Shown here one piece after another: positions 19,402 through 53,971 of a stretch of DNA of 64,000 bases (its first letter is position 1; each line of letters begins with the position of its first letter). The position numbers and the translations under genes were made by a program. This DNA is from an uncultured bacterium. Its GTDB lineage: Bacteria > Verrucomicrobiota > Lentisphaeria > Victivallales > UBA1829. Where the stretch lies: contig URNX01000004.1 of assembly GCA_900549415.1 (NCBI GenBank), positions 19,967 through 83,966 of the forward strand, in the 5' to 3' direction. Under the pieces are notes generated by a model. That model saw only the letters and a program-made list of their open reading frames with translations, ran no database searches and was not told the DNA's origin.

Positions 19402-21054
19402 TCACTGTTTGACCGGTTTGCTTTTGGCGGGGCGTCCGGGGGCGTCGGCTGGGGCGTCCCAGTCGCATTGTGCGACAAGCACGAGTTCTGAGAATTTAGT
19501 GGAACTGGATACGCTTGAGAACAGATAGCCGAGGTACGGAATGTCCATGAGGAACGGAACGCCTGTGGCGGATTTGACAACTTCCTGTTTTTTGAGTCCG
19601 CCGATCACAAAACTGTTCTTTCCGTGCGGAAGGCTGACCTCCTGCGTCACGACGCTGTTCGCCGAGATTCTCGGTGTGCCGTTTGATTCAAAACCGAGCA
19701 GACTTGAGTTGTTCAAAGTGATTTTGAACCGTGTTTCATCCAGGTTCACGGAGGCGTTTTCGACGTTCATGGAGAAGCCGAATCCGGTGAATTTTGTGAC
19801 TTCCTGGCGGTTGCCGCGTCCGACGGGAATCTTGTCAGCGTCCTGCTCAAGTTTTCCGATCAGCATGGAGAGCAGTTCATACGGGCCGAGGTCTTTGAGC
19901 GAGTGAGAGGCTGCTGGAACGGAGGTGTCCACATAGAAAATCTGTGTTTTGCGTTCGAGGGTTGCGGGGGTATTGTTGCGGATGAGCAGTTCGCCCGTGT
20001 ACGCGACTTTTGCTTTGCCGATGCTGACGAGAAAATCAATGTAGCGTGAGTTCCATTTCGGGTTGAAATTATAGAAACTTGTCCGTTCGGAACCGGTCTG
20101 TCCGAGAGTTCCGCCGTATGCGGCCGCCCAGTTGTCGCGGTAACGTCCCCCGACGGAGAAGAGGTCAACTCCCTGATTGTTTTTCCACGCCTGGAAGTCG
20201 ATGCCCATTTTATCATCGTTTTCTCTGGTGATTTCGTAGACGGAAATTTTAAGGCGCACTTGCGGGATGGGAACATCGTAGAGCTTCAGCATTTTATCGA
20301 TGTTGGGCATGGTGTAGTTTGTGACGTCGAAGACGAGCCAGTTGAGGTCCGGATCGGCGGCGACGACATCCTGTCCCTGCCAGATTTCAGTGACGTCTGT
20401 GATGTTCATTCCGACGTTTTGGATGAGCTGCATGAGATTCCGTGCGGGTACGAATTTCGGCATATAGATGAAAGTCTGCGTTCCGCTGTTTGCACCCATT
20501 TGCGGTTTGTCGAGCAGCTTCACGAGTGTATCGAATCCCATGCCGTTTTCATGGTCTTTGAACCGGTACTCTTCGGCGCTGATGATGAGAAGCCCGGTTC
20601 CGTCGGCATATTTCAGACACTCGACGGCGGTGTTGCTTCCAAGCTGTGCGGGCGGGGCGTAGGTCGGCTGCGAGCTGACCGGTTCGGCGGAAGGTGCGCC
20701 GACGGTTGCCTGATACGGCATTGCCGCCGTGTTCATCGGGAAAATCTGCTGCATGCTGGTGTTGCCGACCCGTTTCGCCTGCACCATCTGGCGGATGTAG
20801 TCGCGGAGTTCATAGGGGGCTGCGTGTTTGAGCAGATAGCATTTTGTGACGACGCGCGGATCGTTGTTGTCCCGGATGAAATGGACAGTGTCTGTTTCAT
20901 CTTTGACATGAACGTTGAGGATAGCCTCGATCCGGGAGCTGTCGTATCCTCCGCTGTTGTTGAAGTTGGAATCGCGCGGTGTGACGGGCGGCAGATCTGC
21001 CGCATGCACGGTAATAACGGAAAGAAGAAGCGGAATGAGCAGATGTTTTTTCAT
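19402..21054 (-). CDS. Secretin-family outer-membrane channel protein, paralog 1
   Basis: Signal peptide MKKHLLIPLLLSVITVHA. The C-terminal secretin signature is IGGLKKQEVVKSATGVPFLMDIPYLGYLFSS. Confidence 0.8.
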   Translation of the reverse strand: MKKHLLIPLLLSVITVHAADLPPVTPRDSNFNNSGGYDSSRIEAILNVHVKDETDTVHFIRDNNDPRVVTKCYLLKHAAPYELRDYIRQMVQAKRVGNTSMQQIFPMNTAAMPYQATVGAPSAEPVSSQPTYAPPAQLGSNTAVECLKYADGTGLLIISAEEYRFKDHENGMGFDTLVKLLDKPQMGANSGTQTFIYMPKFVPARNLMQLIQNVGMNITDVTEIWQGQDVVAADPDLNWLVFDVTNYTMPNIDKMLKLYDVPIPQVRLKISVYEITRENDDKMGIDFQAWKNNQGVDLFSVGGRYRDNWAAAYGGTLGQTGSERTSFYNFNPKWNSRYIDFLVSIGKAKVAYTGELLIRNNTPATLERKTQIFYVDTSVPAASHSLKDLGPYELLSMLIGKLEQDADKIPVGRGNRQEVTKFTGFGFSMNVENASVNLDETRFKITLNNSSLLGFESNGTPRISANSVVTQEVSLPHGKNSFVIGGLKKQEVVKSATGVPFLMDIPYLGYLFSSVSSSTKFSELVLVAQCDWDAPADAPGRPAKSKPVKQ

Positions 21055-21066
21055 GGTTCTGACTCC

Positions 21067-22485
21067 TTATTTCAGCTTTATGAGTTTTCCGGCTTGCGGA
21101 CTCTGACGGGCGGTATCGGCCATTTCTGCTGTGACCGTCATGCAGACACGGGTTTTCTCCCGGGTTGTCGTGGTAGTGCTGAACAGGTATTTGAGAATCG
21201 GGATTTCAGACAGGAACGGAACGCCGATGGTCTGTTCAACCTCTTCGGATTTATCCCATGCCGCGAGAATTTTTTCGGTGTTCAGTTCGATGGTTGTGTT
21301 TCCGGTGAATTGGCTGGTTTCGATGAGTTCGGTTCCGTAATTGTTCCGTTCAACGGCTCCGGCGACCTGGATGTCGTATCCGAAAAAGAGAGTTCCGGGC
21401 ATCCCCGCATACTGCCCCGGCGCATAGTCCGGGATTGTGAAATCGACTTCCGTCCCTGCGTGCAGGCAGACTGTCGGGGCGAGGATTTTTAGATAGAGCT
21501 GGTTGGTGCCTTCCGGCAGTCCGGAAATGGCGCTCGGGACGACGGCGGTGTAGTCGTTGTTGGTTTTTGTGATGTTCTGGAACTGCGGGTTGAAGAGCAT
21601 GGAGTAGTTTTTCGTATCGGAATTCAGAACGGTCATATCGGCGGAATTGCGGATTTCCGCTTTGCCGTTCTGCTGAAGCAGGCGGATGAAGCTGGCGTCG
21701 AACTGCGGAGCGAAAAAGAATCCGCCGACGGGACCGGACGCTGCTTGAAGAGCCGCGGTTCCGCCCGATGTAATGCTGAAAGAATCCCATGCCGTCTGGA
21801 AGATGTTGAGTCCGGGACCGTTCTTCCATGCGAGATATTCAATGCCCATGTCGCGGAGAGTGCTTTCGCGCACTTCATAAACCTTGAAATGAAGATTGAT
21901 CTGCGGAGCCGGGCGGTCGAGCCAGGCAAGAAACTGGTACATGAATCCGGAATTGGAGGCGTTGTCCTTCCAGTAGATCTGATTGGAATTTTTGTCGTAT
22001 CCGTAGAGGGAACCGTAAGGCCCTTCGTTGATGACAGCGTTGACGGTTACGTTGATGAGATCCTGTCCGGAGCGGTACTTCGGACGATAGACGGCACGAG
22101 TGATTCCGGTTCCGCGGATAATGTCGCCGGGAACTTTGCCGTCGATTTCGACGTTGCGGTCAGCCTTTGCGATGAAGTCGTCGACGTAAGGCATCATGTG
22201 GACGGGACATGTGACCGTCAGAATCTGCTGATTGCTGTTTCCGTAGTCAATGCAGTTGACGGCGGAGTTCATGTTGTACCGTTTGACGATGCTCATGACC
22301 CACGGCATGAGGTCGTTTGCCTGTGTGTACTTGAGGATGTAGATTTTCGAGACCATGTAGTCCTGCGCGTCATCCTGGACGAACCGCAGAGTTCTGGTTC
22401 CGGACGGATTGTCTTCCGCCGCGTCGGCCGGAAATTCCCCGGCGAGCAACGGCAGAACGGAGCATAGAAGCCATGTTTTGTTCAT
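21067..22485 (-). CDS. Secretin-family outer-membrane channel protein, paralog 2
   Basis: C-terminal signature GVPFLSEIPILKYLFSTTTTT. N-terminal blocks are shared with paralog 1 (FVQDDAQDYMVSKIYILKY vs FIRDNNDPRVVTKCYLLKH). It lies 12 bp upstream of paralog 1. Confidence 0.8.
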   Translation of the reverse strand: MNKTWLLCSVLPLLAGEFPADAAEDNPSGTRTLRFVQDDAQDYMVSKIYILKYTQANDLMPWVMSIVKRYNMNSAVNCIDYGNSNQQILTVTCPVHMMPYVDDFIAKADRNVEIDGKVPGDIIRGTGITRAVYRPKYRSGQDLINVTVNAVINEGPYGSLYGYDKNSNQIYWKDNASNSGFMYQFLAWLDRPAPQINLHFKVYEVRESTLRDMGIEYLAWKNGPGLNIFQTAWDSFSITSGGTAALQAASGPVGGFFFAPQFDASFIRLLQQNGKAEIRNSADMTVLNSDTKNYSMLFNPQFQNITKTNNDYTAVVPSAISGLPEGTNQLYLKILAPTVCLHAGTEVDFTIPDYAPGQYAGMPGTLFFGYDIQVAGAVERNNYGTELIETSQFTGNTTIELNTEKILAAWDKSEEVEQTIGVPFLSEIPILKYLFSTTTTTREKTRVCMTVTAEMADTARQSPQAGKLIKLK

Positions 22486-22589
22486 AATAGAATCCCCCCT
22501 TTGATGGAGGGAAGATAATGCCGTTCCGGAGGAAAATCAAACAGGGAACGGCATGGGCGGAAACGTTTGTTTCATGGTTCCATGCGCCG

Positions 22590-22628
22590 GAAAAAGGGCA
22601 AAAAAAATCCCGGAGCAAGTCCGGGATT
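22590..22628 (-). terminator. Rho-independent terminator after the TRL lipoprotein gene
   Basis: Stem aatcccgga (22606-22614) pairs with tccgggatt (22620-22628). On the minus strand it is followed by UUUUUUUGCCCUUUUU. Confidence 0.7.
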
Positions 22629-22648
22629 CATGAAAGTGTCCTTGCGGC

Positions 22649-22966
22649 TTATTCGCCGTAGACAACGGTCTTGTAGCTGCCGTAGATGCCGAGGATGTTC
22701 AGGACTTCCTGGTTGACCCAGCCGACCTTTGTGATCTTGGCATCGCTGCAGGCCGCGTTGATGGAGGCGTCGCCGCTGGCGAAGCATCCGAACATGGTCT
22801 GGCATTTTGCCTCGCCCTTCTTGGAGTAGCGCATTTCGCCGTTGCCGACGGTAACGGGCAGTTTGACGCTGGTGTAGACGAGTCCGAGCGGGAATGAGGT
22901 TGCGCATCCCGTCAGGACAGCGAGGGACGCCAGAGAGACTGCAGTGACAATCGCTTTGATTTTCAT
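22649..22966 (-). CDS. TRL-like small lipoprotein
   Basis: Lipobox LAVLTGC. The 105-aa sequence GLVYTSVKLPV...GWVNQEVLNILGIYGSYKTVVYGE resembles the TRL family from memory. AAGGAG RBS upstream. Confidence 0.65.
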   Translation of the reverse strand: MKIKAIVTAVSLASLAVLTGCATSFPLGLVYTSVKLPVTVGNGEMRYSKKGEAKCQTMFGCFASGDASINAACSDAKITKVGWVNQEVLNILGIYGSYKTVVYGE

Positions 22967-23077
22967 GGAAAAGCTCCTTAGTTTGTTGGTTTTCTTCTAT
23001 ACACTGACAATATACAATGAATTGCCACGGAAAACAAATGGAATTCGTAAAAATCCATGAAAAAAAACTCGTGCGCA

Positions 23078-23105
23078 TTGAAAAAATGCAAATCGGCTGT
23101 AATGT
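23078..23105 (+). promoter_or_regulatory. Candidate sigma70-like promoter for the Bro-N::Fic gene
   Basis: TTGAAA (23078-23083), N16, then TAATGT (23100-23105), about 60 nt upstream of the ATG at 23165. Confidence 0.35.
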
Positions 23106-23164
23106 ATGAACGTTCAACCGCTTGCCGTTCAGGACGGCGGCTTTTCCCAGCAGGACTGATAAAG

Positions 23165-24058
23165 ATGAATCATAAAATTTCAATACGTTTCTTCAATGAT
23201 CGCGAAGTCCGCGCCGCTTGGGACGATGTGTCTGGGCAATGGATGTTTTCCGTTGTCGATATCATCGCTGTTCTGACGGAAAGCGCGAATCCGCGTAAAT
23301 ACTGGAGTGTGCTGAAGTCGCGTTTGAAAAAATCAGATTCACCGCTTGCGGAAAGCTGCATACAGCTGAAAATGACTGCGGCGGATGGGAAAAAATACTT
23401 GACAGACTGTCTGGGGCAGAAGGATATTCTTTCATTGATTGAATCGATTCCCAGCCGTTTTTCTATTCCGTTTATCCAGTGGTTGACTTACAGCGGAACC
23501 TCCATTGACGGGCAAAGCCGAACAAAAGCCTATGCGCTCTTCGAAAGCGGTCTGCTGGAAAATTTGGAACCGGGAACTGTGAAGAGTTTGCAGCAGATTC
23601 ACTCCTACCTGTTTGGCGGACTTTATGATTTTGCCGGAAAAATCCGGAATAAAAATATCAGCAAGACTGGTTTTCAATTCGCCATGGCGCAATTTCTTCC
23701 CGAAACTCTTGCTGCGATTGAGGCGATGCCTGAATCGACCTATGATGAAATTATTGATAAATACGTGGAAATGAATGTCGCTCATCCTTTCATGGAGGGA
23801 AACGGAAGGAGCACACGCATCTGGCTGGACGGTATGCTGAAACGCGGTTTGAAAAAATGTGTGGACTGGAGTCGTGTCAATAAAAATGATTATCTTGAAG
23901 CTATGCGCAGGAGTGTCGCGGACAGTTCGGAGATTAAGGCGCTGCTTCAGCCGGCTTTGACAGAGAAGATTAATGACAGGGAAATGTTTATGAAAGGAAT
24001 AGATTATTCTTATTATTACGAATCCGATGATCCGGATATGGAACCGGATGATAAATGA
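23165..24058 (+). CDS. Bro-N-like DNA-binding domain fused to a class III (NmFic-like) Fic adenylyltransferase
   Basis: The N-terminus FFNDREVRAAWDDVSGQWMFSVVDIIAVL is Bro-N-like. The Fic core is IHSYLFGGLYDFAGKIR...HPFMEGNGRSTRIWL. A C-terminal SYYYES element sits at the position of the inhibitory helix. Confidence 0.85.
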   Translation: MNHKISIRFFNDREVRAAWDDVSGQWMFSVVDIIAVLTESANPRKYWSVLKSRLKKSDSPLAESCIQLKMTAADGKKYLTDCLGQKDILSLIESIPSRFSIPFIQWLTYSGTSIDGQSRTKAYALFESGLLENLEPGTVKSLQQIHSYLFGGLYDFAGKIRNKNISKTGFQFAMAQFLPETLAAIEAMPESTYDEIIDKYVEMNVAHPFMEGNGRSTRIWLDGMLKRGLKKCVDWSRVNKNDYLEAMRRSVADSSEIKALLQPALTEKINDREMFMKGIDYSYYYESDDPDMEPDDK

Positions 24059-24078
24059 AAACGGGTGCTTTTGATATG

Positions 24079-24111
24079 ATTCAGTTGACTACAATCTGTA
24101 GTCAACTGAAT
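24079..24111. terminator. Perfect 15-bp inverted repeat between convergent fic and Cys-rich protein genes
   Basis: attcagttgactaca-atc-tgtagtcaactgaat, followed by tttt on the + strand. Confidence 0.6.
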
Positions 24112-24125
24112 TTTCTGCGGATGTT

Positions 24126-24473
24126 TTACGCGAGAAGCGCGGCATTTTCGAGGATGCGGAGTCCGGCGGCGCAGGCGGGACAGTCACACCATTTCGCGCC
24201 TTTGCTTTTGATTTCGCGGGCGTGGGCGGCAACGTTTTTCGCCGTTTCCTCTCCGAAAAGCTTGACGGCGTCCGCGGTCTCGAAAAATCCGATGACGTCG
24301 TCCACTGTACAGATGTCTTCCTTAATCTCTTTTGCAAGAGCGTCCGCGGCGGCTTTGGCGCTTGCTGTTCCGGCTGCATCGAGCCACTTCTGACCGGCGT
24401 TCTTCAGCTCCTGGCAGCAGGAGGGGGCGGCGATCATTTCTTTGACGGTTTGAGCGAGTTCCTGTTTATTCAT
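24126..24473 (-). CDS. Small Cys-rich conserved hypothetical protein (CC...C...CxCxxC)
   Basis: 115 aa from MNKQELAQ with the Cys pattern PSCCQEL, DICTV and KWCDCPAC. It overlaps the marR stop by 8 bp. Confidence 0.6.
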   Translation of the reverse strand: MNKQELAQTVKEMIAAPSCCQELKNAGQKWLDAAGTASAKAAADALAKEIKEDICTVDDVIGFFETADAVKLFGEETAKNVAAHAREIKSKGAKWCDCPACAAGLRILENAALLA

Positions 24474-24930
24474 TTTGAAACCTCCGTTCGGGTTGGTTGT
24501 TTTCATAATTCTGAACATTCCGGAGTACGCGTTCCATGTAGGATTCCAGCTGTTCTATTTCTTCTTCTGAAAAGCCTTGGCAGGTGATGCCGGTCATGGC
24601 GGCTGTTACCGCATCATACTTTTCCCGCAGTCCGAACGCCTGTTCCGTCAGAAGAATCCGGATTTTTCTCCGGTCCCCGGGATCGGCGGTCCGGCGGAGC
24701 AAATTTTTCCGTTCCATCCGGTCCAGCATCGAAGTTAATGTCGCATTGGCCAGTCCGGTCCGCTGTGCAAGCTCCTGAATGGAAATGGAATTGCTGTTCC
24801 ACAAAACATAAAGGATTCGTCCCTGCGGACCATTGAATTCATCAATGCCGTATTTGACCAGAAGACGGGTCAGGATGCGTTCCTGATACTGCTTCGTCAA
24901 TGTAATCAGCAATCCGATTTTCCGGAGCAT
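24466..24930 (-). CDS. MarR family transcriptional regulator
   Basis: wHTH block ISIQELAQRTGLANATLTSMLDRMERKNLLRRTADPGDRRKIRILLTEQ. Confidence 0.85.
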   Translation of the reverse strand: MLRKIGLLITLTKQYQERILTRLLVKYGIDEFNGPQGRILYVLWNSNSISIQELAQRTGLANATLTSMLDRMERKNLLRRTADPGDRRKIRILLTEQAFGLREKYDAVTAAMTGITCQGFSEEEIEQLESYMERVLRNVQNYENNQPERRFQNE

Positions 24931-24956
24931 TTCCGAAATTCCTTTTTTTGTTTGAT

Positions 24957-24986
24957 ATAATATATTACGATATAGTAATATTTCAA
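24957..24986 (-). promoter_or_regulatory. Candidate marR promoter with an embedded AT-rich inverted repeat (operator)
   Basis: On the minus strand there is TTGAAA (24986-24981), then TATATT or TATTAT at 16-18 nt. The inverted repeat atattac-N6-gtaatat (24962-24981) lies between the -35 and -10. Confidence 0.4.
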
Positions 24987-25057
24987 GAGCTTTCTGAAAA
25001 AATGTCTGAAAAGTTTCTTCCCTGGGGAATGGCGTGGAGAAAAGGCAAGCGGTTCGG

Positions 25058-27724: not shown

Positions 27725-27766
27725 ATTTTTTTTCATAAAAAACGTCCGGTTCGGCGGAACCGGACG
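27725..27766 (-). terminator. Rho-independent terminator after the portal-like gene
   Basis: Stem cgtccggttc (27743-27752) pairs with gaaccggacg (27757-27766). On the minus strand it is followed by UUUUUUAUGAAAAAAAAUC. Confidence 0.7.
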
Positions 27767-27775
27767 GGGAGAGAA

Positions 27776-29164
27776 TCAGGCGTTTGTTTTTTCGCGGGTG
27801 ATCCGTTCATTTTCTTCATCGTAAGAGGCGTCGGTGAAATCATTGCGGCGGAGCCATTCGTGGATGCTGCGTGCGGAGAGGGGGAGTCCGGCGTTCTTGG
27901 CATTCCAGAGGTCGAGCACGTCGGATGCGGCAACTCCGCCTTCGTTGAAATCGCGGTTGACGCGGAAGATCACTTCTTCCGGGTTGGCTCCGCACCATCC
28001 GGCGGCAATGCGGAGAATCTGCAGCATTGTCTTTTCCGCAGTTCCGGCAACGGCGCGCATGAGAGCTGTTTTGACTGCAAGACGAGTCTTCAGCGCTTCG
28101 CCGGATTCGTTGCTGCGGCTGTCGAGTGTGATTCCCATGTTCTGGGCAATGGCGTGCAGATCGTTCTGGGCGGCGCGCATCTCCTGAAGTCCGGAGCCGG
28201 AAATTTCCAGGTAGCTTCCGGAAGCGTCGGGGGACTCTGTGTGAATGTAGTTGCCCGCGCCCATCATCGGCGGTCCGTCAAGCTGGAATCCTTTGAGAAA
28301 CAGAGTCGACTGCGCCTGCATGAAAAGCGCATGGCGGTAATCGGCTTCACCGCGGTAGATGGCAAGACACGCATTGGCAAGCGGCAGGAGCGGAGGCGTC
28401 GGGACGGCCGCGCCGGAGTCGTTTACGTTCGCAAAGACAAACGGAATGCGGTTGAGGCGGCGTCCGCGGATTTCCGGGAAACACTCGTCGGGAAGAAGAC
28501 ACGGGTTCGTGCGGAAGGCGCGAAATTCATCCGGCGTCATGCGGACCGAACAGTATTCGCCGTCGGGAGAGAGTGTGCAGAGACGGACTTTGCGGCGGAA
28601 TTCCCAGCCTTCCGGACCGCGTTCCCAGCCGGATTCATCAAGCAGAAGCGAGGTGAGAGCGGAGGAATCGCCGTTTTCGCAAGTCCAGTCGAGAATCTGC
28701 GGTGCGGCGCAGAGAGTCATGACGGGAACGGCGTCGGGGGAGACTGTCGCAGGCGGAACGTCGAGGAGGAGTCCGCAGCGCCCGTAGAGAAGCTGGAAGA
28801 GGTTCAGTCTGCGGAGAGTGTCGTCAAGCGGGAGACCGTCGCTGGAGGCGGTTGTGCGGATGGCGCGGATGCGTTCGGGCAGTTCGACGGCCTCCGGCGG
28901 TTCGCGGTGCATGATGCCGAGCATGGTGGCGATTGTGGTCGCGAGATAATTGAAATAATTCGCGCGGGCTTTGTAGGCGTCGTACCGGCGCATTCCGAAC
29001 TGGGCGTCGGCCATCTGCCCTTCGGTCCGGGGGAGATAGCGTTCGCCGGCGTGTTTGACTTCGCGCTCTCCGGCAAAGCAGTCGGAACAGACCCGCCAGT
29101 CTTCAGCGGCGCAGAGGTATTGCGGATTCAGCAGATCGCGCAGATTCAAATTGTGATTCAGCAT
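27776..29164 (-). CDS. Phage portal-like protein (DUF4055-type), orphan
   Basis: 463 aa from MLNHNLNL. The block GEREVKHAGERYLPRTEGQ...YDAYKARANYFNYLATTIATMLGIM resembles the DUF4055 portal N-terminal signature from memory. AAGGAG RBS before the ATG at 29164. Confidence 0.5.
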   Translation of the reverse strand: MLNHNLNLRDLLNPQYLCAAEDWRVCSDCFAGEREVKHAGERYLPRTEGQMADAQFGMRRYDAYKARANYFNYLATTIATMLGIMHREPPEAVELPERIRAIRTTASSDGLPLDDTLRRLNLFQLLYGRCGLLLDVPPATVSPDAVPVMTLCAAPQILDWTCENGDSSALTSLLLDESGWERGPEGWEFRRKVRLCTLSPDGEYCSVRMTPDEFRAFRTNPCLLPDECFPEIRGRRLNRIPFVFANVNDSGAAVPTPPLLPLANACLAIYRGEADYRHALFMQAQSTLFLKGFQLDGPPMMGAGNYIHTESPDASGSYLEISGSGLQEMRAAQNDLHAIAQNMGITLDSRSNESGEALKTRLAVKTALMRAVAGTAEKTMLQILRIAAGWCGANPEEVIFRVNRDFNEGGVAASDVLDLWNAKNAGLPLSARSIHEWLRRNDFTDASYDEENERITREKTNA

Positions 29165-29267
29165 AAAAGGCTCCTTTCTGATGCTGGTTTTCCGGAATAT
29201 GTCAACCGAACGTCTTCTGTTCTTGACAATTTGGAAAAACAGCGTTAAATTATCGAAAACAGAGAAA

Positions 29268-31559
29268 ATGAGGGAGCAAATGGAGAGCGGAAACGGCAGG
29301 GATTCGGCAGAAAAGACAATTCTGATTGACCGGACGGTTGTATCGGGAAAAACGGCTCCGGCGTCATCCGGTAAAAACGCGGTGAAGACCGGATTCGGCA
29401 CCGGTTTCTTCCGGAAGAAACGGAAAGACGTGGATTCGCGGATCGAAGAGCTGCGCGAGCATCACAATCCCGGGAACGTCAATTTTTCGGGAGATGAACT
29501 CAAACTTGATTCTCTCGATGATGAATATGAAGTCCGGGAGAAGATCGCCGAGGGCGGACAGGGACTGCTCTTCCGCGGATTCGACCGTCGGCTGCACCGT
29601 CTGGTCGCCATCAAATCCCTGCGCAAAGAGGCGGCGGAGAACGGGGAACAGCGGCGTTTTTTCCTTTCTGAAGCGCGCGTGACCGCCCAGCTTGATCATC
29701 CCGCGATCGTGCCGATCTATTCTCTGAAATCCGACGGAGAAAACGGGCTTCATCTCGCCATGAAGATGATCAACGGCATTACCCTTAAAGACTATCTGAA
29801 ACAGGTCGCTACACACTACCGTCTCGACGGAGTCCGCGCGTTCGACGAGGAGAAGAGTCTGCGGAACCGTCTGGAAATTTTTCTCAAGGCGTGCGATGCG
29901 CTCGAATACGCGCACAGCCGTAACATCATGCACCGCGATTTGAAACCGGAAAACATCATGACCGGAGAGTATCATGAAACCTATATCATGGACTGGGGAA
30001 TTGCGCGTCCGATTCTGCCGCAGCCGGAAGGCGCCTCCGTTCTGGCGGGCACGCCGCAGTATCTTGCGCCGGAGGCGATCCGCGGGGAACCATGCGACCA
30101 GCGCGCCGATATTTTCGCGATGGGGGCAATCCTGTTTGAACTTGTTACGCTTCATCCCGCATTTTCCGGCGAGACGCCGGAGGAGGTCATGTGCGCGATT
30201 CGCGACGGGCAGAAGAATCCGCCGGAACATGAGTTCGGAGCGAAAATTGACGGTGATCTGAAAGCGGTCATTTGCAAGGCGCTTGCGAACGATCCAGCGG
30301 AACGCTATCAGCAGGCGGGGGAACTTTCCGCCGACCTGAGACGCTGGATGATGGATCTTGAAGTGTCCGCAAAGCCCGACAATCTTCTGCGGAAATGTTT
30401 CCGCTGGAGCCGGAGCCACAGCCGTCTGCTGCTGCTGCTCTTCCTGACAGCGCTGCTGGCGGGCGTTTCGGCTCTCTCCTATTCGCTCTTCCAGAGTTTC
30501 CGTTTTTCAGAGGAGATGCGGCTGCGCGACAATGCACTGAGCACTGCGTTTTCAATCTGTTCACGTGCGGCATACCGGCTCGATGAACAGTTCCTCAAAC
30601 TGGAACAGGCAACGTCGCTTCTTGCGGCGGATACCGCGTTTCTGCTGAATTATGATCTGCATGAACACTCCGCCGGAACCGCCGCCGTGTCCCTGGCGGA
30701 ATTTCCGGAACGGAAATCGGACACCATGCTGCGTTCCCGTTTTCACCACGGGACCATTGATCCCGCCGTGCTGGTCTACACTGCAACTCCCGATACCGCG
30801 CTTCCGCTGAAGACGCGTCTGGAACCGCTTTCCCGTTTTATTCCGCGTCTGCGGCAGATTATTCTGGAGAGCGGAAATGTCGCATGGACCACGGAGGCGC
30901 AGGAAAAGGCGTTTCTGGAGGGAACGCCGGTGATCCGCGTGCTGTTCGGTTTTCCCGACGGACTTTATGCCGCATACCCGGCGTCGGGCAAATTCCCGCG
31001 CGGCTATGATCCGCGCCTGCGCCGCTGGTATCGTATTGCGGAACATGCGAAGCAGGGGACGGTTTGGACGGAGCCTTATATCGACAGTATTCCGGAGTTC
31101 GGGCTGGTTATCTCCTGCAGTGCTCCGATCCGCCTTGCCGGAGGAACCGCGAGCGGCGTCTGCGGACTCGACATCTCCATTGCCAAGCTCGTGGAGGAAC
31201 TTCGTCTGGGCGGCAACAGCGAGGCGGTTGCGGAGGAGAAGGCGATTGTGACGAACACGGGGGACATCATCGTTTCAACCGGACGCGACTTTGCCGCCGG
31301 AAATCTGCGCGGATACCGTCGGGCGGATGAAAAAGTCGTTTTCGCCAATCTCGGCGATCCCGTCCTTCTGGACAGAATGAACCGCAAGCAGTACGGAGTC
31401 AGCATTCAGCGCGATGTGCAGGGACGCGAGTTCGTCTACGCGTTCTGCCGGATCCGTTCGGTCGACTGGTTCTATGTGGAGAAAATGGAACTGAAGCGTC
31501 TGGTTGCTTCCTCAGAACAGCGCGGAGTAGAGCCCGGTCAGCAGAATCAGCAGCATTAA
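29268..31559 (+). CDS. Hanks-type Ser/Thr protein kinase with one TM helix and a periplasmic dCache_1-like sensor domain
   Basis: Kinase motifs VAIK, HRDLKPENIM, DWGIA and GTPQYLAPE. TM helix LLLLLFLTALLAGVSALSYSLF. Cache block YDPRLRRWYRIAEHAKQGTVWTEPYID...GVCGLDISIAKL. The start is ambiguous between 29268 and 29280. Confidence 0.85.
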   Translation: MREQMESGNGRDSAEKTILIDRTVVSGKTAPASSGKNAVKTGFGTGFFRKKRKDVDSRIEELREHHNPGNVNFSGDELKLDSLDDEYEVREKIAEGGQGLLFRGFDRRLHRLVAIKSLRKEAAENGEQRRFFLSEARVTAQLDHPAIVPIYSLKSDGENGLHLAMKMINGITLKDYLKQVATHYRLDGVRAFDEEKSLRNRLEIFLKACDALEYAHSRNIMHRDLKPENIMTGEYHETYIMDWGIARPILPQPEGASVLAGTPQYLAPEAIRGEPCDQRADIFAMGAILFELVTLHPAFSGETPEEVMCAIRDGQKNPPEHEFGAKIDGDLKAVICKALANDPAERYQQAGELSADLRRWMMDLEVSAKPDNLLRKCFRWSRSHSRLLLLLFLTALLAGVSALSYSLFQSFRFSEEMRLRDNALSTAFSICSRAAYRLDEQFLKLEQATSLLAADTAFLLNYDLHEHSAGTAAVSLAEFPERKSDTMLRSRFHHGTIDPAVLVYTATPDTALPLKTRLEPLSRFIPRLRQIILESGNVAWTTEAQEKAFLEGTPVIRVLFGFPDGLYAAYPASGKFPRGYDPRLRRWYRIAEHAKQGTVWTEPYIDSIPEFGLVISCSAPIRLAGGTASGVCGLDISIAKLVEELRLGGNSEAVAEEKAIVTNTGDIIVSTGRDFAAGNLRGYRRADEKVVFANLGDPVLLDRMNRKQYGVSIQRDVQGREFVYAFCRIRSVDWFYVEKMELKRLVASSEQRGVEPGQQNQQH

Positions 31560-31722: not shown

Positions 31723-32367
31723 TTACAGCGCAACTTTCCATGCAATGATGAACGAGAGGGCAAGGACAAATGCCGAGAAGAGAATGGTCAGAATCAGCGG
31801 CAGGAAGAATGCGAATCCTTTTTTGAAAAGCGTTCCGGCCGGAATATCCGCGAGATCCATTTTCGCCGCCGTCTGAACGGCTGTCCCCGCTGCATGTTCG
31901 GAGGGAAGAGCCGTTGCCCGGATAAGCTCGATGCGCCCGTTTTCAAATGTGCGGAGCGCTTCGTTGAGGGCCGGATGAAAATCGGAATCCGAAAGTTCGG
32001 GAATGCGGCAGGATTCGAGCCGGGCGAGGATTGCGCGGAGTTCGGCGAGCGTCTGAGCGCAATCGGCGGCGGAGCGTTCCAAACGCATCTGCTCCGCGGA
32101 GCTTTTCGCTTCGGCTTCGTTGAGCTGTCCGATCAGATCGCGTTTTGTGCGGAGCAGTTCTTCATAGCGCGGTTTGAGCAGAGCGTTGCGCGCGGCGTTG
32201 TCGACTTCCGGAGCCCGTGGCTTCGGCTGTGGCTGCTGTTCCTGCGGGTCGTTTCCGGATTCGGGCGAGTCCTGTTCCTGATTGTGCTGATGCATCCGGG
32301 CCGAAGCCTCTGAGATCTGACCGCTGATGCGGTGGAGCGAGCCGGAGACAAACATTGATTTAGCCAT
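31723..32367 (-). CDS. Coiled-coil tail-anchored membrane protein (hypothetical)
   Basis: 214 aa from MAKSMF with a Q/P-rich N-terminus, heptad-like central region and the C-terminal TM helix FAFFLPLILTILFSAFVLALSFIIAW. Confidence 0.55.
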   Translation of the reverse strand: MAKSMFVSGSLHRISGQISEASARMHQHNQEQDSPESGNDPQEQQPQPKPRAPEVDNAARNALLKPRYEELLRTKRDLIGQLNEAEAKSSAEQMRLERSAADCAQTLAELRAILARLESCRIPELSDSDFHPALNEALRTFENGRIELIRATALPSEHAAGTAVQTAAKMDLADIPAGTLFKKGFAFFLPLILTILFSAFVLALSFIIAWKVAL

Positions 32368-32439
32368 GGATGCATTTCCTTTCCCAGTATAATTCTCCTT
32401 TAATATTCCACTCTTTTTGAAAAAAATCAAGCGGAAAAC

Positions 32440-32468
32440 TTGAATCATTCAAAAAAAAATGATATATT
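32440..32468 (+). promoter_or_regulatory. Candidate sigma70-like promoter for the aminotransferase gene
   Basis: TTGAAT (32440-32445), N17, then TATATT (32463-32468), about 65 nt upstream of the ATG at 32533. Confidence 0.45.
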
Positions 32469-51723: not shown

Positions 51724-53388
51724 ATGGAGGATTTTTTTATGAGAACAGAGCAATCTTTGAACGGAATCTGGGACTTTGAATTTTCAGTGAAGGCTCCGGA
51801 ACAAATCAATCTTGCGGAGCTTGCGTTTCCGGAACGCATCTCGGTTCCCGGGTGTTTCGATGCATTGGCAAAATATGCCGGGAAGCGCGGGACGGGCGTC
51901 TACCGCCGTTTCGTCGAATGCGGAGGAACGGTCCGCCTGAATCTGGAAGCGGTTGGTCTGCGTGCGGATGTTTACTGGGACCGGAAGAGAATCGGGCGTA
52001 CGGAACTGCCGTATTCGCCGTACACTCCCGTTTTTGATGCGGGAGCGCGGGGGCGGCACGAGCTGGTGATTGTGACGGACAACCGTCAGGACTCGGGAAC
52101 GGCTTCGCTTTTCCATGCATATTATGATTTTTACGCGTACGGTGGAATTTACCGCAATGTTTCGCTGACCGAACTTCCCGCATACCGGATTGACCGTGCG
52201 GAGTTTATCCCGGAGGATCTGGAAGAGGGAACGGTTCGGATTCGTCTTGCGCTCGGCGGAGAGATTCCGGAGCAGGTGACTGCGGAAGTCCGGTTCGATA
52301 CTTCTGCGGAGGCGGAAAAGATTACGCTTCATTCGGGTGTGGCGGAAGCGGTCTGCCGCGTCCCCTGTTTCAAACTCTGGTCGCCTGAGTCGCCGGAACT
52401 GCACACCGCACGTGTCGTCATTCCCGGAGATACCGTTTCTGTTGAGTTCGGAATGCGCAAAATCGAATGTAAAAACGGAACATTTCTGCTGAATGGAAAG
52501 CCGCTGAAGCTGATTGGCTGGAACCGTCATGAAAGTCATCCGGAATTCGGCGCGGCGGTTCCGGAGTTCCTGACTTGTTCCGATCTGCGCATGATAAAAG
52601 AGCAGGGCTGCAACTTCATTCGCGGCTGTCACTACAAACAGAGCGAAGCGATGCTGCGTCTGTGCGACCGCATGGGTCTGCTCGTCTGGGAGGAGTCTCT
52701 GGGCTGGGGCAACCGCCGGGAACAGCTTGCCGACCCCGAATTCCGCCGACTCCAGCGGGAGCAGACGGTTGCGATGGTGCGGAGCAGCATCAATCATCCG
52801 AGCGTGATTCTGTGGGGCTTCCTGAACGAGTGCGCGAGCGAAACGCCGGAGGCGCGTGGTTGCATTGCGGAACTGGCGTCGGCAATTCGCGCGGAAGATT
52901 CTTCGCGTCCGGTGACGTTTGCTTCGAACCGCGGAGTCAAGGATGTCTGCCTGGATTTGGTCGACGTAATCGCGTTCAACACCTATCCCGGCTGGTACGA
53001 TCACACCGAGATTGAAAGTTACGGAATTGACCGCGTGATTCCTGCCCTGGAAGAGCTCGCGGAGTTCGCAAGCCGTCCGGAGTATCGCGATAAACCTTTG
53101 ATTGTCAGCGAGATCGGCGCGGCCGCAATCATCGGAGACCATTCGGGGCTTCCGTGGTCGGAAGAGTATCAGGCGGAGCTTCTCGGCGCGGCGCTCAGTT
53201 TCGCCCTGACGAATCCGCGGTGCGGCGGCATTGCGATGTGGCAGTTCTGCAATGCCCGCACGTACACCGCGAATTCGTGCGTGCTGACGCGTCCGCGCGG
53301 CTTCAACAACAAAGGCGCGGTGGATGAATACCGCCGTCCGAAGCTCGCGTGGCACCGGATCCGGCAGATGCTTACGGATGCGCGCTGA
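51724..53388 (+). CDS. Glycoside hydrolase family 2, beta-glucuronidase-like
   Basis: SLNGIWDFEF N-terminus, GWNRHESHPEFG, FIRGCHYKQSE and NHPSVILWGFLNE. The start is either 51724 or 51739. Confidence 0.8.
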   Translation: MEDFFMRTEQSLNGIWDFEFSVKAPEQINLAELAFPERISVPGCFDALAKYAGKRGTGVYRRFVECGGTVRLNLEAVGLRADVYWDRKRIGRTELPYSPYTPVFDAGARGRHELVIVTDNRQDSGTASLFHAYYDFYAYGGIYRNVSLTELPAYRIDRAEFIPEDLEEGTVRIRLALGGEIPEQVTAEVRFDTSAEAEKITLHSGVAEAVCRVPCFKLWSPESPELHTARVVIPGDTVSVEFGMRKIECKNGTFLLNGKPLKLIGWNRHESHPEFGAAVPEFLTCSDLRMIKEQGCNFIRGCHYKQSEAMLRLCDRMGLLVWEESLGWGNRREQLADPEFRRLQREQTVAMVRSSINHPSVILWGFLNECASETPEARGCIAELASAIRAEDSSRPVTFASNRGVKDVCLDLVDVIAFNTYPGWYDHTEIESYGIDRVIPALEELAEFASRPEYRDKPLIVSEIGAAAIIGDHSGLPWSEEYQAELLGAALSFALTNPRCGGIAMWQFCNARTYTANSCVLTRPRGFNNKGAVDEYRRPKLAWHRIRQMLTDAR

Positions 53389-53971
53389 ACGTTTCGCCGA
53401 GATATTCGGCGACGCCCTCCGCGGACGGTTTCATTCCCTTTTCGCCCTTGTGCCAGTTCGCGGGGCAGACTTCGCCGTGTTCCTCGAAGAACTGGAGCGC
53501 GTCCAGAATCCGCAACGCCTCATCGACGCTGCGTCCGAGCGGAAGATCGTTGACGAGTTCGTGACGCACGACACCCTGCCGGTCGATGAGGAAGAGTCCG
53601 CGCAGGGCGACGGCGTCATTGAGGAGAACTCCGTAGTCGCGCGAGATGCTTTTTGTGGTGTCCGCGACCATCGGGAAGCGGACGCAGCCGATGCCGCCCT
53701 TGTTCGGCGGAACGGATTTCCAGGCGAAATGCGTGTACTCCGTGTCGGTTGAGACGCTGACGAGTTCGCATCCGCGCCGCTTGAATTCTTCATATTTTTC
53801 ATTGAATGCGAGAATTTCCGACGGACAGACGAACGAGAAGTCCATCGGGTAGAAGAAGAGAACGACGTATCTGCCTTTCAGACTGGAAAGTTTGAATTTG
53901 CGGAACGAGTTGTCTCCCATGACGGCGTTTGCGGTGAAATCCGGCGCATTTTCTGTGACGAGTGCAGACAT
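53372..53971 (-). CDS. Typical 2-Cys peroxiredoxin (AhpC/Tsa family)
   Basis: FFYPMDFSFVCPSEI peroxidatic-Cys block and the resolving-Cys block EVCPANW. Confidence 0.9.
   Translation of the reverse strand: MSALVTENAPDFTANAVMGDNSFRKFKLSSLKGRYVVLFFYPMDFSFVCPSEILAFNEKYEEFKRRGCELVSVSTDTEYTHFAWKSVPPNKGGIGCVRFPMVADTTKSISRDYGVLLNDAVALRGLFLIDRQGVVRHELVNDLPLGRSVDEALRILDALQFFEEHGEVCPANWHKGEKGMKPSAEGVAEYLGETFSAHP

What the first reader, a model, noticed from the sequence alone, without database searches (positions are those of the whole stretch)
27776..29267. Monocistronic, orphan phage-portal homolog divergently paired with a Ser/Thr kinase
The 463-aa protein carries what I recognise as the DUF4055-type portal N-terminal signature (…GEREVKHAGERYLP…YDAYKARANYFNYLATTIATMLGIM…). 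No terminase, capsid, scaffold, tail, integrase or lysis gene lies within tens of kb. The gene has its own AAGGAG RBS and its own strong terminator. It shares a 103-bp divergent control region (29165-29267) with the Cache-domain eSTK.

An intact portal gene kept alone suggests domestication. It could be a molecular decoy or sensor for phage terminase or packaging proteins that feeds a kinase-based response. It could be a structural dodecameric ring reused for another purpose. It could also simply be the last surviving gene of a decayed prophage.
Basis: partly seen in the sequence, partly recalled or inferred. Interest (0 to 1): 0.65.

Follow-up and report, generated by a model that had tools for sequence, protein, structure and literature searches.

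The report
Scattered domesticated phage head genes
The lone phage portal gene is real and strongly conserved, but it is one piece of a phage head, neck and DNA-packaging gene set that gut Victivallales bacteria keep scattered around their chromosome under a shared 9-base upstream signal, most likely to build a gene-transfer-agent-like particle.

Summary
Window 27776-29164 (-) encodes an intact 462-aa portal protein (PHROG 145, E 7e-89; AF2 pLDDT 91; TM 0.7-0.8 to phage portals). It has its own RBS and terminator, and no other phage gene lies in the 64 kb.

It is not a decaying remnant. It belongs to a monophyletic clade of always-solitary portals in at least 10 Lentisphaeria/Victivallales species. 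That clade is sister to Lentisphaerae prophage portals. dN/dS is 0.05-0.10, and dS matches the neighbouring genes.

It is not kept alone. Genomes of the clade hold two more fragments of the same ancestral phage at distant loci: scaffold-capsid-orf130-Ad1 adaptor, and orf102-Neck1-tail terminator-TerL. All three were linked on one 4.56-Mb contig and in a second MAG, though not in the window's own genome.

Every fragment, and the portal in 16 of 17 loci, carries the 9-mer CGGTTGACA just upstream. It occurs once in the whole window, at 29200-29208.

The kinase/ARH pairing is confined to the closest relatives (93-97% portal identity) and looks incidental.

Best reading: the portal of a dispersed, co-regulated, domesticated siphovirus-like particle, GTA-like. 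Particle production and DNA transfer are inferred, not shown.

The parts
27776..29164 (-). Portal protein gene (462 aa), the orphan-clade member of a dispersed domesticated phage head/neck/packaging gene set
   Evidence: ORF and translation. PHROG 145 at E 6.6e-89 and PF13264 at E 3e-14. PDB profile hit to portal 8xb5 at E 6e-53. AF2 model pLDDT 91. Foldseek TM 0.68-0.80 to phage portals. dN/dS 0.05-0.10.
29171..29176 (-). Ribosome-binding site AAGGAG, 6 nt before the ATG
   Evidence: Read directly from the sequence. An (A)AGGAG sits at the same place in most orphan-clade orthologues; the P0002-P0004 subclade has AAAGGA instead.
29200..29208 (-). CGGTTGACA, a conserved 9-bp upstream element shared with the TerL operon, the capsid operon and orf382 in related genomes; presumed regulon signal
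   Evidence: It is the only copy in the 64-kb window (expected 0.44). The exact 9-mer lies 30-58 nt upstream of the portal ATG in 16 of 17 orphan loci, and the 17th has CGGTTGACG. The flanking sequence is not conserved between subclades.
27733..27766 (-). Intrinsic terminator directly after the portal stop codon
   Evidence: 10-bp stem with 7 GC pairs, 4-nt loop, then TTTTTTATGA.

Best explanation
**What it is**

The gene encodes a working portal protein: the 12-fold ring at one capsid vertex through which DNA is pumped. It belongs to a siphovirus-derived head, neck and packaging machine that an ancestor of a Victivallales (Lentisphaeria) lineage domesticated.

The ancestral colinear module was TerL - portal - scaffold - capsid - Ad1 - Neck1 - tail terminator. 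It has been broken into at least three chromosomal loci:
- the portal alone;
- orf102 - Neck1 - tail terminator - TerL;
- scaffold - capsid - orf130 - Ad1, with a divergent orf382.

Each fragment keeps the same 9-bp element, CGGTTGACA, just upstream. The nearest prophage also has it in front of its scaffold/capsid genes.

**Inferred mechanism**
1. One unknown factor reads the 9-mer and switches all fragments on together.
2. The portal ring nucleates procapsid assembly with scaffold and capsid protein.
3. TerL docks on the portal clip and packages DNA.
4. Ad1, Neck1 and the tail terminator close the head and join a tail.

This would give a gene-transfer-agent-like particle.

**Shown versus inferred**
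- Shown: portal identity and fold; solitary position; monophyly; purifying selection; co-occurrence of portal, TerL and capsid in the same genomes at distant sites; the shared motif.
- Inferred: co-regulation; particle assembly; what DNA is packaged; any transfer.
For: **Portal identity**
- Family, structure and fold matches.

**Orphan clade**
- Window plus P0001-P0016 form one clade with a long stem. It is sister to the prophage portals P0017-P0021, which sit between TerL and Mu-F/capsid genes.
- Ten species-level Lentisphaeria/Victivallales genomes carry it, once each. It is intact in 9 of 9 evaluable genomes.

**Locus context**
- 345 kb of orphan loci give no hit at E < 0.01 to 25 proteins of the sister prophages. 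All 19 phage-type loci have TerL, Mu-F or scaffold next to the portal.

**Selection**
- Portal dN/dS is 0.096 at dS 0.43, and 0.058-0.093 in other pairs.
- This is lower than the flanking kinase (0.09-0.14) and ARH (0.13), with matching dS.

**The other fragments**
- TerL locus in a cellular context, with intact Walker A/B and nuclease motifs.
- Capsid locus in a cellular context on contigs up to 1.09 Mb.
- PHROG names: Neck1, TerL, scaffold, major head protein, Ad1.
- Capsid dN/dS is 0.05-0.09.
- The capsid tree mirrors the portal tree: long stem, three subclades, sister to the same prophage.

**Same-genome links**
- One 4,556,201-bp Victivallales contig carries portal MEI3037762.1, TerL MEI3039271.1 and capsid MEI3040146.1.
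- MAG IJW05 carries portal MBQ7404084.1, TerL MBQ7404551.1 and capsid MBQ7402326.1.
- Further pairs are listed.

**Shared motif**
- CGGTTGACA lies upstream of the portal in 16 of 17 loci, the TerL operon, the capsid operon, orf382 and the L008 prophage scaffold gene.
- It occurs once in the 64-kb window.

**Clip**
- The portal clip (aa 284-325, the TerL/adaptor docking site) is 90% identical within the clade but only 28% identical to phage relatives.
Against: - No tail tube, tape measure, baseplate, lysis, small terminase, protease or Mu-F homologue was found. Whole genomes could not be searched, so completeness of a particle is unknown.
- There are no expression, particle or DNA-transfer data.
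- TerL and capsid genes were shown in the same genome as the portal for two other subclades (about 71% and about 59% portal identity to the window). For the window's own species this is inferred from clade membership and similar cluster sizes.
- The factor that reads CGGTTGACA is unknown. The motif contains TTGACA, but its spacing to the RBS (18-24 nt in most portal loci) does not fit a sigma-70 -35 box.
- One extra copy lies inside an AraC coding region in L051, so the 9-mer alone is not fully specific.
Confidence: 0.6

Rival explanations
1. Anti-phage interference. The host-encoded portal, alone or with the other retained structural proteins, poisons or hijacks the assembly of related incoming phages. 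It would act as a dominant-negative subunit, a decoy for their terminase, or a non-mobile satellite-like parasite of their capsids.
For: - The nearest relatives are portals of Lentisphaerae prophages, at 42-49% identity, so cross-assembly with such phages is conceivable.
- A PADLOC candidate defence gene (Fic, PDC-S04) lies 4 kb away.
Against: - The portal matches no PADLOC model.
- No defence-island context is conserved. Neighbours differ in every subclade.
- The clip that would meet foreign terminases is frozen (90% identity) rather than diversifying.
- A co-inherited TerL with intact catalytic motifs, plus scaffold, capsid, Ad1, Neck1 and tail terminator, points to a self-sufficient assembly line.
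Confidence: 0.12
2. One reading: the portal and the divergently transcribed Cache-domain Ser/Thr kinase (with or without the ARH enzyme) form a functional sensor/response cassette.
For: - The two genes share a 103-bp divergent intergenic region.
- The trio eSTK-portal-ARH is kept in L017, L020 and L021.
- The kinase domain hits PD-T4-6 defence-kinase models.
Against: - The trio is limited to genomes with 93-97% portal identity, where synteny is expected by descent.
- None of the 13 other orphan loci has a kinase within 10 kb.
- The 56-59% clade has AhpC downstream instead.
- The PD-T4-6 hits cover only the generic kinase domain (aa 82-365).
- The portal carries the CGGTTGACA signal. The kinase has a separate sigma-70-like promoter at 29223-29251.
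Confidence: 0.03
3. Inert remains: the portal and the other fragments are leftovers of an old prophage, broken up by rearrangements and not yet eroded.
For: - No replication, integration or lysis genes lie near any fragment.
- The genes are scattered.
Against: - dN/dS is 0.05-0.10 for portal and capsid across divergences where dS is 0.2 to above 1.
- The ORFs are full length in 9 of 9 evaluable species.
- TerL keeps its catalytic motifs.
- A 9-bp upstream element is kept while the flanking sequence has diverged completely.
Confidence: 0.02
4. A repurposed machine that is not a DNA-transfer particle, for example a capsid-like compartment or a DNA-handling organelle used inside the cell, with the portal as its gate.
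For: - Only head, neck and packaging genes were found, with no tail tube or lysis genes.
- The capsid protein also gives a weak match to the encapsulin SrpI-like family.
Against: - A tail-terminator homologue and a Neck1/tail-completion protein are retained under selection next to TerL. These make sense only if a tail is attached.
- The absence of tail and lysis genes is untested at the genome level.
Confidence: 0.08

Closest known systems
Portal proteins of DUF4055/PHROG-145 type from siphoviruses (solved example: Acinetobacter phage SH-Ab15497 portal, PDB 8xb5/8xb6) and the Lentisphaerae prophage portals P0017/P0019
   Same: Full-length sequence and fold match, with the same predicted helix/strand layout, read here as wing, stem, clip and crown. 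The prophage portals are the sister group at 42-49% identity.
   Different: - It is not flanked by terminase, Mu-F, scaffold or capsid genes, whereas all 19 phage-type loci are.
- It is chromosomal, vertically inherited and monocistronic.
- The clip sequence differs from the phage relatives and is frozen within the clade.
Gene transfer agents: RcGTA of Rhodobacter capsulatus (at least 24 genes in five loci, PMC5026251) and the Caulobacter crescentus GTA (21-gene main locus plus auxiliary loci, with GafY bound at their promoters, PMC9632790)
   Same: - Phage-derived head/neck/packaging genes without replication or integration genes.
- Vertically inherited and under purifying selection.
- Spread over several loci that appear tied together by a common promoter-proximal signal.
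   Different: - In RcGTA a prophage-like cluster underlies particle production (PMC5026251), and in the Caulobacter GTA terminase, portal and major capsid genes all lie in the major locus (PMC9632790). Here these three core genes are each at a different locus, about 900-1,500 genes apart on a 4.56-Mb contig.
- The host is in a different phylum (Lentisphaerota, PVC group). No paper in the library links GTAs to it.
- The regulator is unknown.
- No particles or transfer have been demonstrated, and tail and lysis genes have not been identified.
Capsid-forming phage satellites (cf-PICI-type islands)
   Same: Host-resident elements that encode their own capsid, portal and connector proteins (my own knowledge of the family).
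   Different: Satellites are compact, mobile islands with an integrase and attachment sites. Here the genes are dispersed, lie in different housekeeping neighbourhoods, and have no integrase nearby.

Membership tests
Phage portal protein (PF13264/DUF4055-type, PHROG 145) | Significant full-length match to portal sequence models | tested here: met
   phrog_145 at E 6.6e-89 over aa 13-461; PF13264 at 53.8 bits (cut-off 25); PDB portal 8xb5 at E 6e-53 with the family profile.
Phage portal protein (PF13264/DUF4055-type, PHROG 145) | Portal fold (wing, stem helices, clip, crown) | tested here: met
   AF2 pLDDT 91, pTM 0.85. Foldseek gives 8xb5 at TM 0.68-0.70 (E 1e-22) and BFVD portals at TM up to 0.80.
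Phage portal protein (PF13264/DUF4055-type, PHROG 145) | Encoded next to the large terminase and head genes of a phage or prophage | tested here: not met
   No phage gene lies in the 64-kb window or within 10 kb in 19 related orphan loci. All 19 phage-type loci have them.
Phage portal protein (PF13264/DUF4055-type, PHROG 145) | Forms a dodecameric ring at a capsid vertex | not testable with these tools
   Only a monomer model could be made.
Gene transfer agent | Phage-like structural and packaging genes in the host chromosome without replication, integration or lysogeny modules nearby | tested here: met
   The portal, TerL-neck and scaffold-capsid-adaptor loci all have cellular flanks. No other protein of the sister prophages is detectable there.
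Gene transfer agent | Vertical inheritance and purifying selection across a host lineage | tested here: met
   Monophyletic clades for portal and capsid with mirrored subclades. dN/dS is 0.05-0.10, and dS equals that of neighbouring host genes.
Gene transfer agent | A complete set for a head, a tail and release (tail tube, tape measure, baseplate or fibres, lysis) | tested here: inconclusive
   Found: TerL, portal, scaffold, capsid, Ad1, Neck1, tail terminator. Tail, lysis, TerS and Mu-F genes were not found, but only about 20 kb around each locus could be read.
Gene transfer agent | Coordinated expression of the scattered loci | tested here: inconclusive
   A shared CGGTTGACA element lies upstream of every fragment. 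No expression data were obtainable.
Gene transfer agent | Particles that package random host DNA and deliver it to other cells | not testable with these tools
   Needs cultures, particle purification and transfer assays.
Known anti-phage defence systems (PADLOC-DB v2) | Match of the portal or a conserved partner to a defence-system model, in a conserved arrangement | tested here: not met
   The portal has no meaningful hit (best E 0.007, HicA-like, no matched stretch). The kinase hits PD-T4-6 through the generic kinase domain only, and its adjacency is not conserved.
Decaying prophage remnant | Relaxed selection, truncations and patchy presence | tested here: not met
   dN/dS is 0.05-0.10 and the ORF is intact in 9 of 9 evaluable species.

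The most novel reading that the evidence does not exclude
Gut Victivallales (PVC group) possess a previously unrecognised gene-transfer-agent-like system. Its core genes for terminase, portal and capsid have been scattered down to single-gene fragments across the chromosome. They are held together as a regulon by a 9-bp signal, CGGTTGACA, inherited from the late promoter of the ancestral phage.
Probability: 0.45. Interest if true: 0.85.

Novelty: new variant of a known kind. Interest (0 to 1): 0.78.

Why it matters
**Detection.** Domesticated phage particles are known from a handful of lineages. Genome scans recognise them as prophage-like clusters. Here the head, neck and packaging genes survive under strong selection but are split into fragments as small as one gene. 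Cluster-based prophage or GTA finders would miss such a system entirely.

**Biology, if the particles are made.**
- Common human and animal gut bacteria of the PVC group would gain a route of gene exchange.
- It would be a clear case of how a host takes over viral genes, keeping a short viral promoter signal on each fragment.
- The 9-mer would give a direct handle for finding the remaining parts and the regulator.

**Method.** A 'lone' viral structural gene should prompt a genome-wide search for its partners before it is read as a new single-gene function.

Tried and rejected
- **Kinase/ARH partnership.** Tested by tblastn of the window's neighbours against 17 orphan loci. It is kept only in the 93-97% clade. 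An early run used a kinase start one base off (29269). The true start is 29268 and the identities were recomputed.
- **Defence role.** The PADLOC scan was negative for the portal.
- **Orphan terminase by identity ranking.** This failed because TerL is about 60% identical across thousands of phages. Context look-ups were needed instead.
- **First attempts to link portal, TerL and capsid to one genome.**
  - The MAG of capsid P0300 (DNXH01) was not among the ten genomes the portal scan returned.
  - The metagenome scan with the capsid alignment returned long contigs but none shared with the portal.
- **CGGTTGACA as a sigma-70 -35 box.** Rejected, because the distance to the RBS is too short.
- **Second motif copy in L051 (13378).** It lies inside an AraC coding region behind a good RBS and is treated as chance.
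- **Short 'portal' cluster members of 332 and 375 aa.** These are an unrelated neighbouring oxidoreductase and not truncated portals.
- **Split match in UBA4640.** It is a run of N, not a frameshift.
- **ThiF next to the capsid locus.** It is unrelated to the ThiF of the sister prophage.
Full report
**1. The observation**

Window 27776-29164 (- strand) is an uninterrupted ORF of 462 codons. It starts at an ATG preceded by AAGGAG at 29171-29176.

- It matches PHROG 145 'portal protein' over its whole length (E 6.6e-89) and Pfam DUF4055 at residues 258-390.
- A profile of the family finds solved portal proteins by sequence (8xb5, E 6e-53).
- An AlphaFold model built on 113 homologues is confident (pLDDT 91, pTM 0.85).
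- That model superposes on phage portals: 8xb5 at TM 0.68-0.70, and BFVD portals at TM up to 0.80.
- A 10-bp GC-rich hairpin plus a T-run follows the stop codon directly (27766-27743, -).
- The gene is separated by 103 bp from a divergent Ser/Thr kinase with TM and Cache domains. The kinase ATG is at 29268.
- Pfam scans of about 50 further ORFs across the window show only cellular functions among those with a match.
- tblastn with 25 proteins of the nearest prophages finds nothing in the window.

The description is correct apart from these small points.

**2. Relatives and their contexts**

A search of 5.8 billion proteins gave a graded series of hits: 93%, 71-74%, 61-64%, 56-59%, then 49% and below. 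In a neighbour-joining tree the window and P0001-P0016 form one clade on a long stem. It is sister to P0017-P0021.

The sister proteins lie in ordinary prophages of Lentisphaerae, in the order TerL - portal - Mu-F - scaffold - capsid - connector - tail terminator.

Every member of the window's clade that could be inspected is solitary and sits among cellular genes. The neighbourhoods differ:
- eSTK and ARH (window, L017, L020, L021);
- GH42 and GH95 (L011);
- a sugar-phosphate isomerase-like gene and an amino-acid kinase (L013);
- a T2SS ATPase, PrmC and S15 (L019);
- AhpC and LigA (L001, L005, L015, L025, L026, L028);
- a Gfo/Idh/MocA oxidoreductase (the P0004 lineage).

A scan of one genome per GTDB species found the orphan type in ten Lentisphaeria/Victivallales genomes, once each. 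The ORF is intact in all nine where it can be read. The tenth has a run of N.

Across 345 kb of these loci, no protein of the sister prophages gives a hit below E 0.01. All 19 phage-type loci from the same scan carry TerL, Mu-F or scaffold genes beside the portal.

**3. Selection**

- Nei-Gojobori estimates give dN/dS 0.096 for window versus P0001 (dS 0.43). Other unsaturated pairs within the clade give 0.093, 0.090 and 0.058.
- Against the same two genomes, the portal (0.093 and 0.049) is more constrained than the kinase (0.137 and 0.092). Against L020 it is also more constrained than ARH (0.131).
- It is also more constrained than orf241 (0.23-0.25).
- Its dS equals that of its neighbours.

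The gene therefore diverged with the chromosome and is under strong purifying selection. The 'last gene of a decayed prophage' option is excluded.

**4. The kinase pairing**

With the correct kinase start, the eSTK-portal-ARH trio is present only in L017, L020 and L021 (portal identity 93-97%). No kinase homologue lies within 10 kb in 13 other orphan loci.

The kinase's matches to PD-T4-6 defence models cover only the generic kinase domain. The pairing is best read as synteny among close relatives.

**5. The portal is not alone in the genome**

I searched with the large terminase of the sister prophage L008. A cluster annotated 'terminase [Victivallales bacterium / Lentisphaeria bacterium]' (P0126, 302 members) turned out to lie among AraC, IclR, melibiase and MFS genes. 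Three small ORFs precede it:
- the second is a Neck1/tail-completion protein (phrog_169, E 6e-26; 36% identical to L008 orf130);
- the third resembles the L008 tail terminator (E 5e-8).

This TerL keeps its Walker A, Walker B and nuclease motifs.

I then searched with the L008 major capsid protein. This revealed a tight clade of 304-307-aa capsid proteins (mean column identity 83%). They lie in a four-gene module:
- scaffold (phrog_206);
- capsid (PF20911 / phrog_212);
- orf130;
- head-tail adaptor Ad1 (phrog_477).

The module sits between TatD/ThiF and HisC/HisD in the best-sampled lineage (L053-L057, L063), on contigs of up to 1.09 Mb. Capsid dN/dS is 0.05-0.09, and the other three genes give 0.10-0.26.

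In true phages these genes are colinear with the portal within about 12 kb. In the Victivallales loci they are never within 10 kb of it. The capsid tree mirrors the portal tree: a long stem, three subclades, and a sister relationship to the same prophage.

**6. Same-genome proof**

NCBI accessions and contig lengths reported for cluster members tie the pieces together.

| Genome | Portal | TerL | Capsid |
|---|---|---|---|
| Single 4,556,201-bp Victivallales contig | MEI3037762.1 | MEI3039271.1 (V8T90_09430) | MEI3040146.1 |
| MAG with locus tag IJW05 | MBQ7404084.1 | MBQ7404551.1 | MBQ7402326.1 |
| MAG with capsid locus tag IJW23 | MBQ9772643.1 | - | MBQ9772797.1 |
| MAG with capsid locus tag E7040 | MBE6406463.1 | - | MBE6405548.1 |
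| MAG MCI579... | - | MCI5799702.1 | MCI5798309.1 |
| MAG MDY569... | - | MDY5695400.1 | MDY5696988.1 |

- On the 4.56-Mb contig the loci are about 1,500 and about 900 protein numbers apart.
- A 548,535-bp contig length is shared by TerL member P0500 and capsid member P0427.
- The portal call on the 4.56-Mb contig is N-terminally short (302 aa). Other members of that lineage are full length.
- For the window's own species, co-occurrence is inferred rather than shown.

**7. A shared upstream signal**

I aligned the regions upstream of the start codons. The 9-mer CGGTTGACA lies 30-58 nt before the portal ATG in 16 of 17 orphan loci. The 17th has CGGTTGACG. The surrounding sequence is unrelated between subclades.

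The same 9-mer precedes:
- the TerL operon (L051, 8854);
- the capsid operon (for example L053, 9324);
- orf382, the gene divergent from the capsid operon (L053, 9280, -);
- the scaffold gene in the sister prophage L008 (14141).

In the 64-kb window it occurs exactly once, at 29200-29208 (-), against an expectation of 0.44. Each orphan locus has only this one copy. One further copy, inside an AraC coding region in L051, is consistent with background.

The element contains TTGACA. However, it lies only 18-24 nt from the RBS in most portal loci, which does not fit a sigma-70 -35 box. The factor that reads it is unknown. The simplest reading is a regulon signal inherited from the phage's late promoter.

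**8. The clip**

By region, identity within the orphan clade is highest in the stem helix (93%) and the clip (90%). The clip is only 28% identical between orphan and phage portals, and 49% identical among phage portals.

The clip is where the terminase and then the head-completion adaptor dock (established knowledge of portal structure). A clip that changed once and then froze fits co-adaptation with fixed, host-encoded TerL and Ad1. It does not fit a decoy that chases diverse phage terminases.

**9. Interpretation**

The portal is the vertex and DNA-channel component of a domesticated, dispersed and probably co-regulated siphovirus-like head-neck-packaging machine.

The closest known kind is a gene transfer agent. 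In RcGTA (five loci) a prophage-like cluster underlies particle production, and in the Caulobacter GTA (a main locus plus auxiliaries, with GafY at the promoters) terminase, portal and capsid genes all lie in the major locus (PMC5026251, PMC9632790). Here those three genes are at three distant loci. No paper in the library links GTAs to Lentisphaerae or the PVC group.

My confidence splits as follows:
- membership of the dispersed, selected set: about 0.8;
- GTA-like particle production: about 0.45.

Still unknown: tail, lysis and small-terminase genes, expression, particles and DNA transfer.

**10. Verdict**

Domestication holds. 'Kept alone', the kinase cassette, the decoy idea and decay do not.
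- This is a new variant of a known kind, with high interest.

Noticed in passing
window 23057-24058 (+), within 22000-25000: A Fic-domain protein with an N-terminal extension matches the PADLOC candidate defence family PDC-S04 over its full length (E 1e-143). It sits in a patch of lower GC (0.47-0.50 against about 0.56), next to a MarR regulator.
   Followed up: partly
window 19402-21054 and 21067-22485 (-): Two tandem secretin-domain genes (PF00263), 550 and 472 aa.
   Followed up: no
window 31723-32448 (-); L019 4458-5069: orf241 has no Pfam family match, and its sequence looks like a coiled coil with a C-terminal hydrophobic tail (by eye). It lies beyond the kinase in the window. A 29%-identical homologue lies directly beside the portal in the distant orphan locus L019. 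This could be chance or a trace of old synteny.
   Followed up: partly
window 53372-53971 (-); L001, L005, L015, L025, L026, L028: An AhpC/1-Cys peroxiredoxin gene follows the portal at 110-170 bp in the whole 56-59% subclade. In the window the AhpC orthologue (about 60% identical) is 24 kb away.
   Followed up: partly
L053 9333-9388 (also L056, L058, L059, L063): The leader of the scaffold-capsid operon, between CGGTTGACA and the RBS, holds a conserved inverted repeat (GGATGCGTCA..TGACGGATCC) that varies slightly between species. It may be an operator or an RNA hairpin.
   Followed up: no
L053 8094-9242 (-), L056, L057, L063: orf382 is transcribed divergently from the capsid operon and carries the same CGGTTGACA element. 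It has no Pfam or PHROG match and dN/dS of about 0.12. It is a candidate further component of the system.
   Followed up: partly
L008 597-3381 and 9001-9906: The sister prophage in Lentisphaerae bacterium GWF2_44_16 carries a Prok_Ub / Prok-E2_D / ThiF module. It also has an Abi_alpha/DUF2806 gene inserted between its terminase and portal genes.
   Followed up: no
protein cluster of P0004 (P0472, P0475, P0477): The 90% cluster of this portal contains unrelated Gfo/Idh/MocA oxidoreductases. This is the neighbouring gene in that lineage, presumably joined through a fused gene call, so it is a database artefact and not truncated portals.
   Followed up: yes
L045 10001-11419: The scan returned only a phage-type portal from the Victivallis vadensis MAG (30% identity, with Mu-F, scaffold and adaptor genes beside it); no orphan-type hit was listed for that contig. 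The domesticated set may therefore be limited to part of the order.
   Followed up: no
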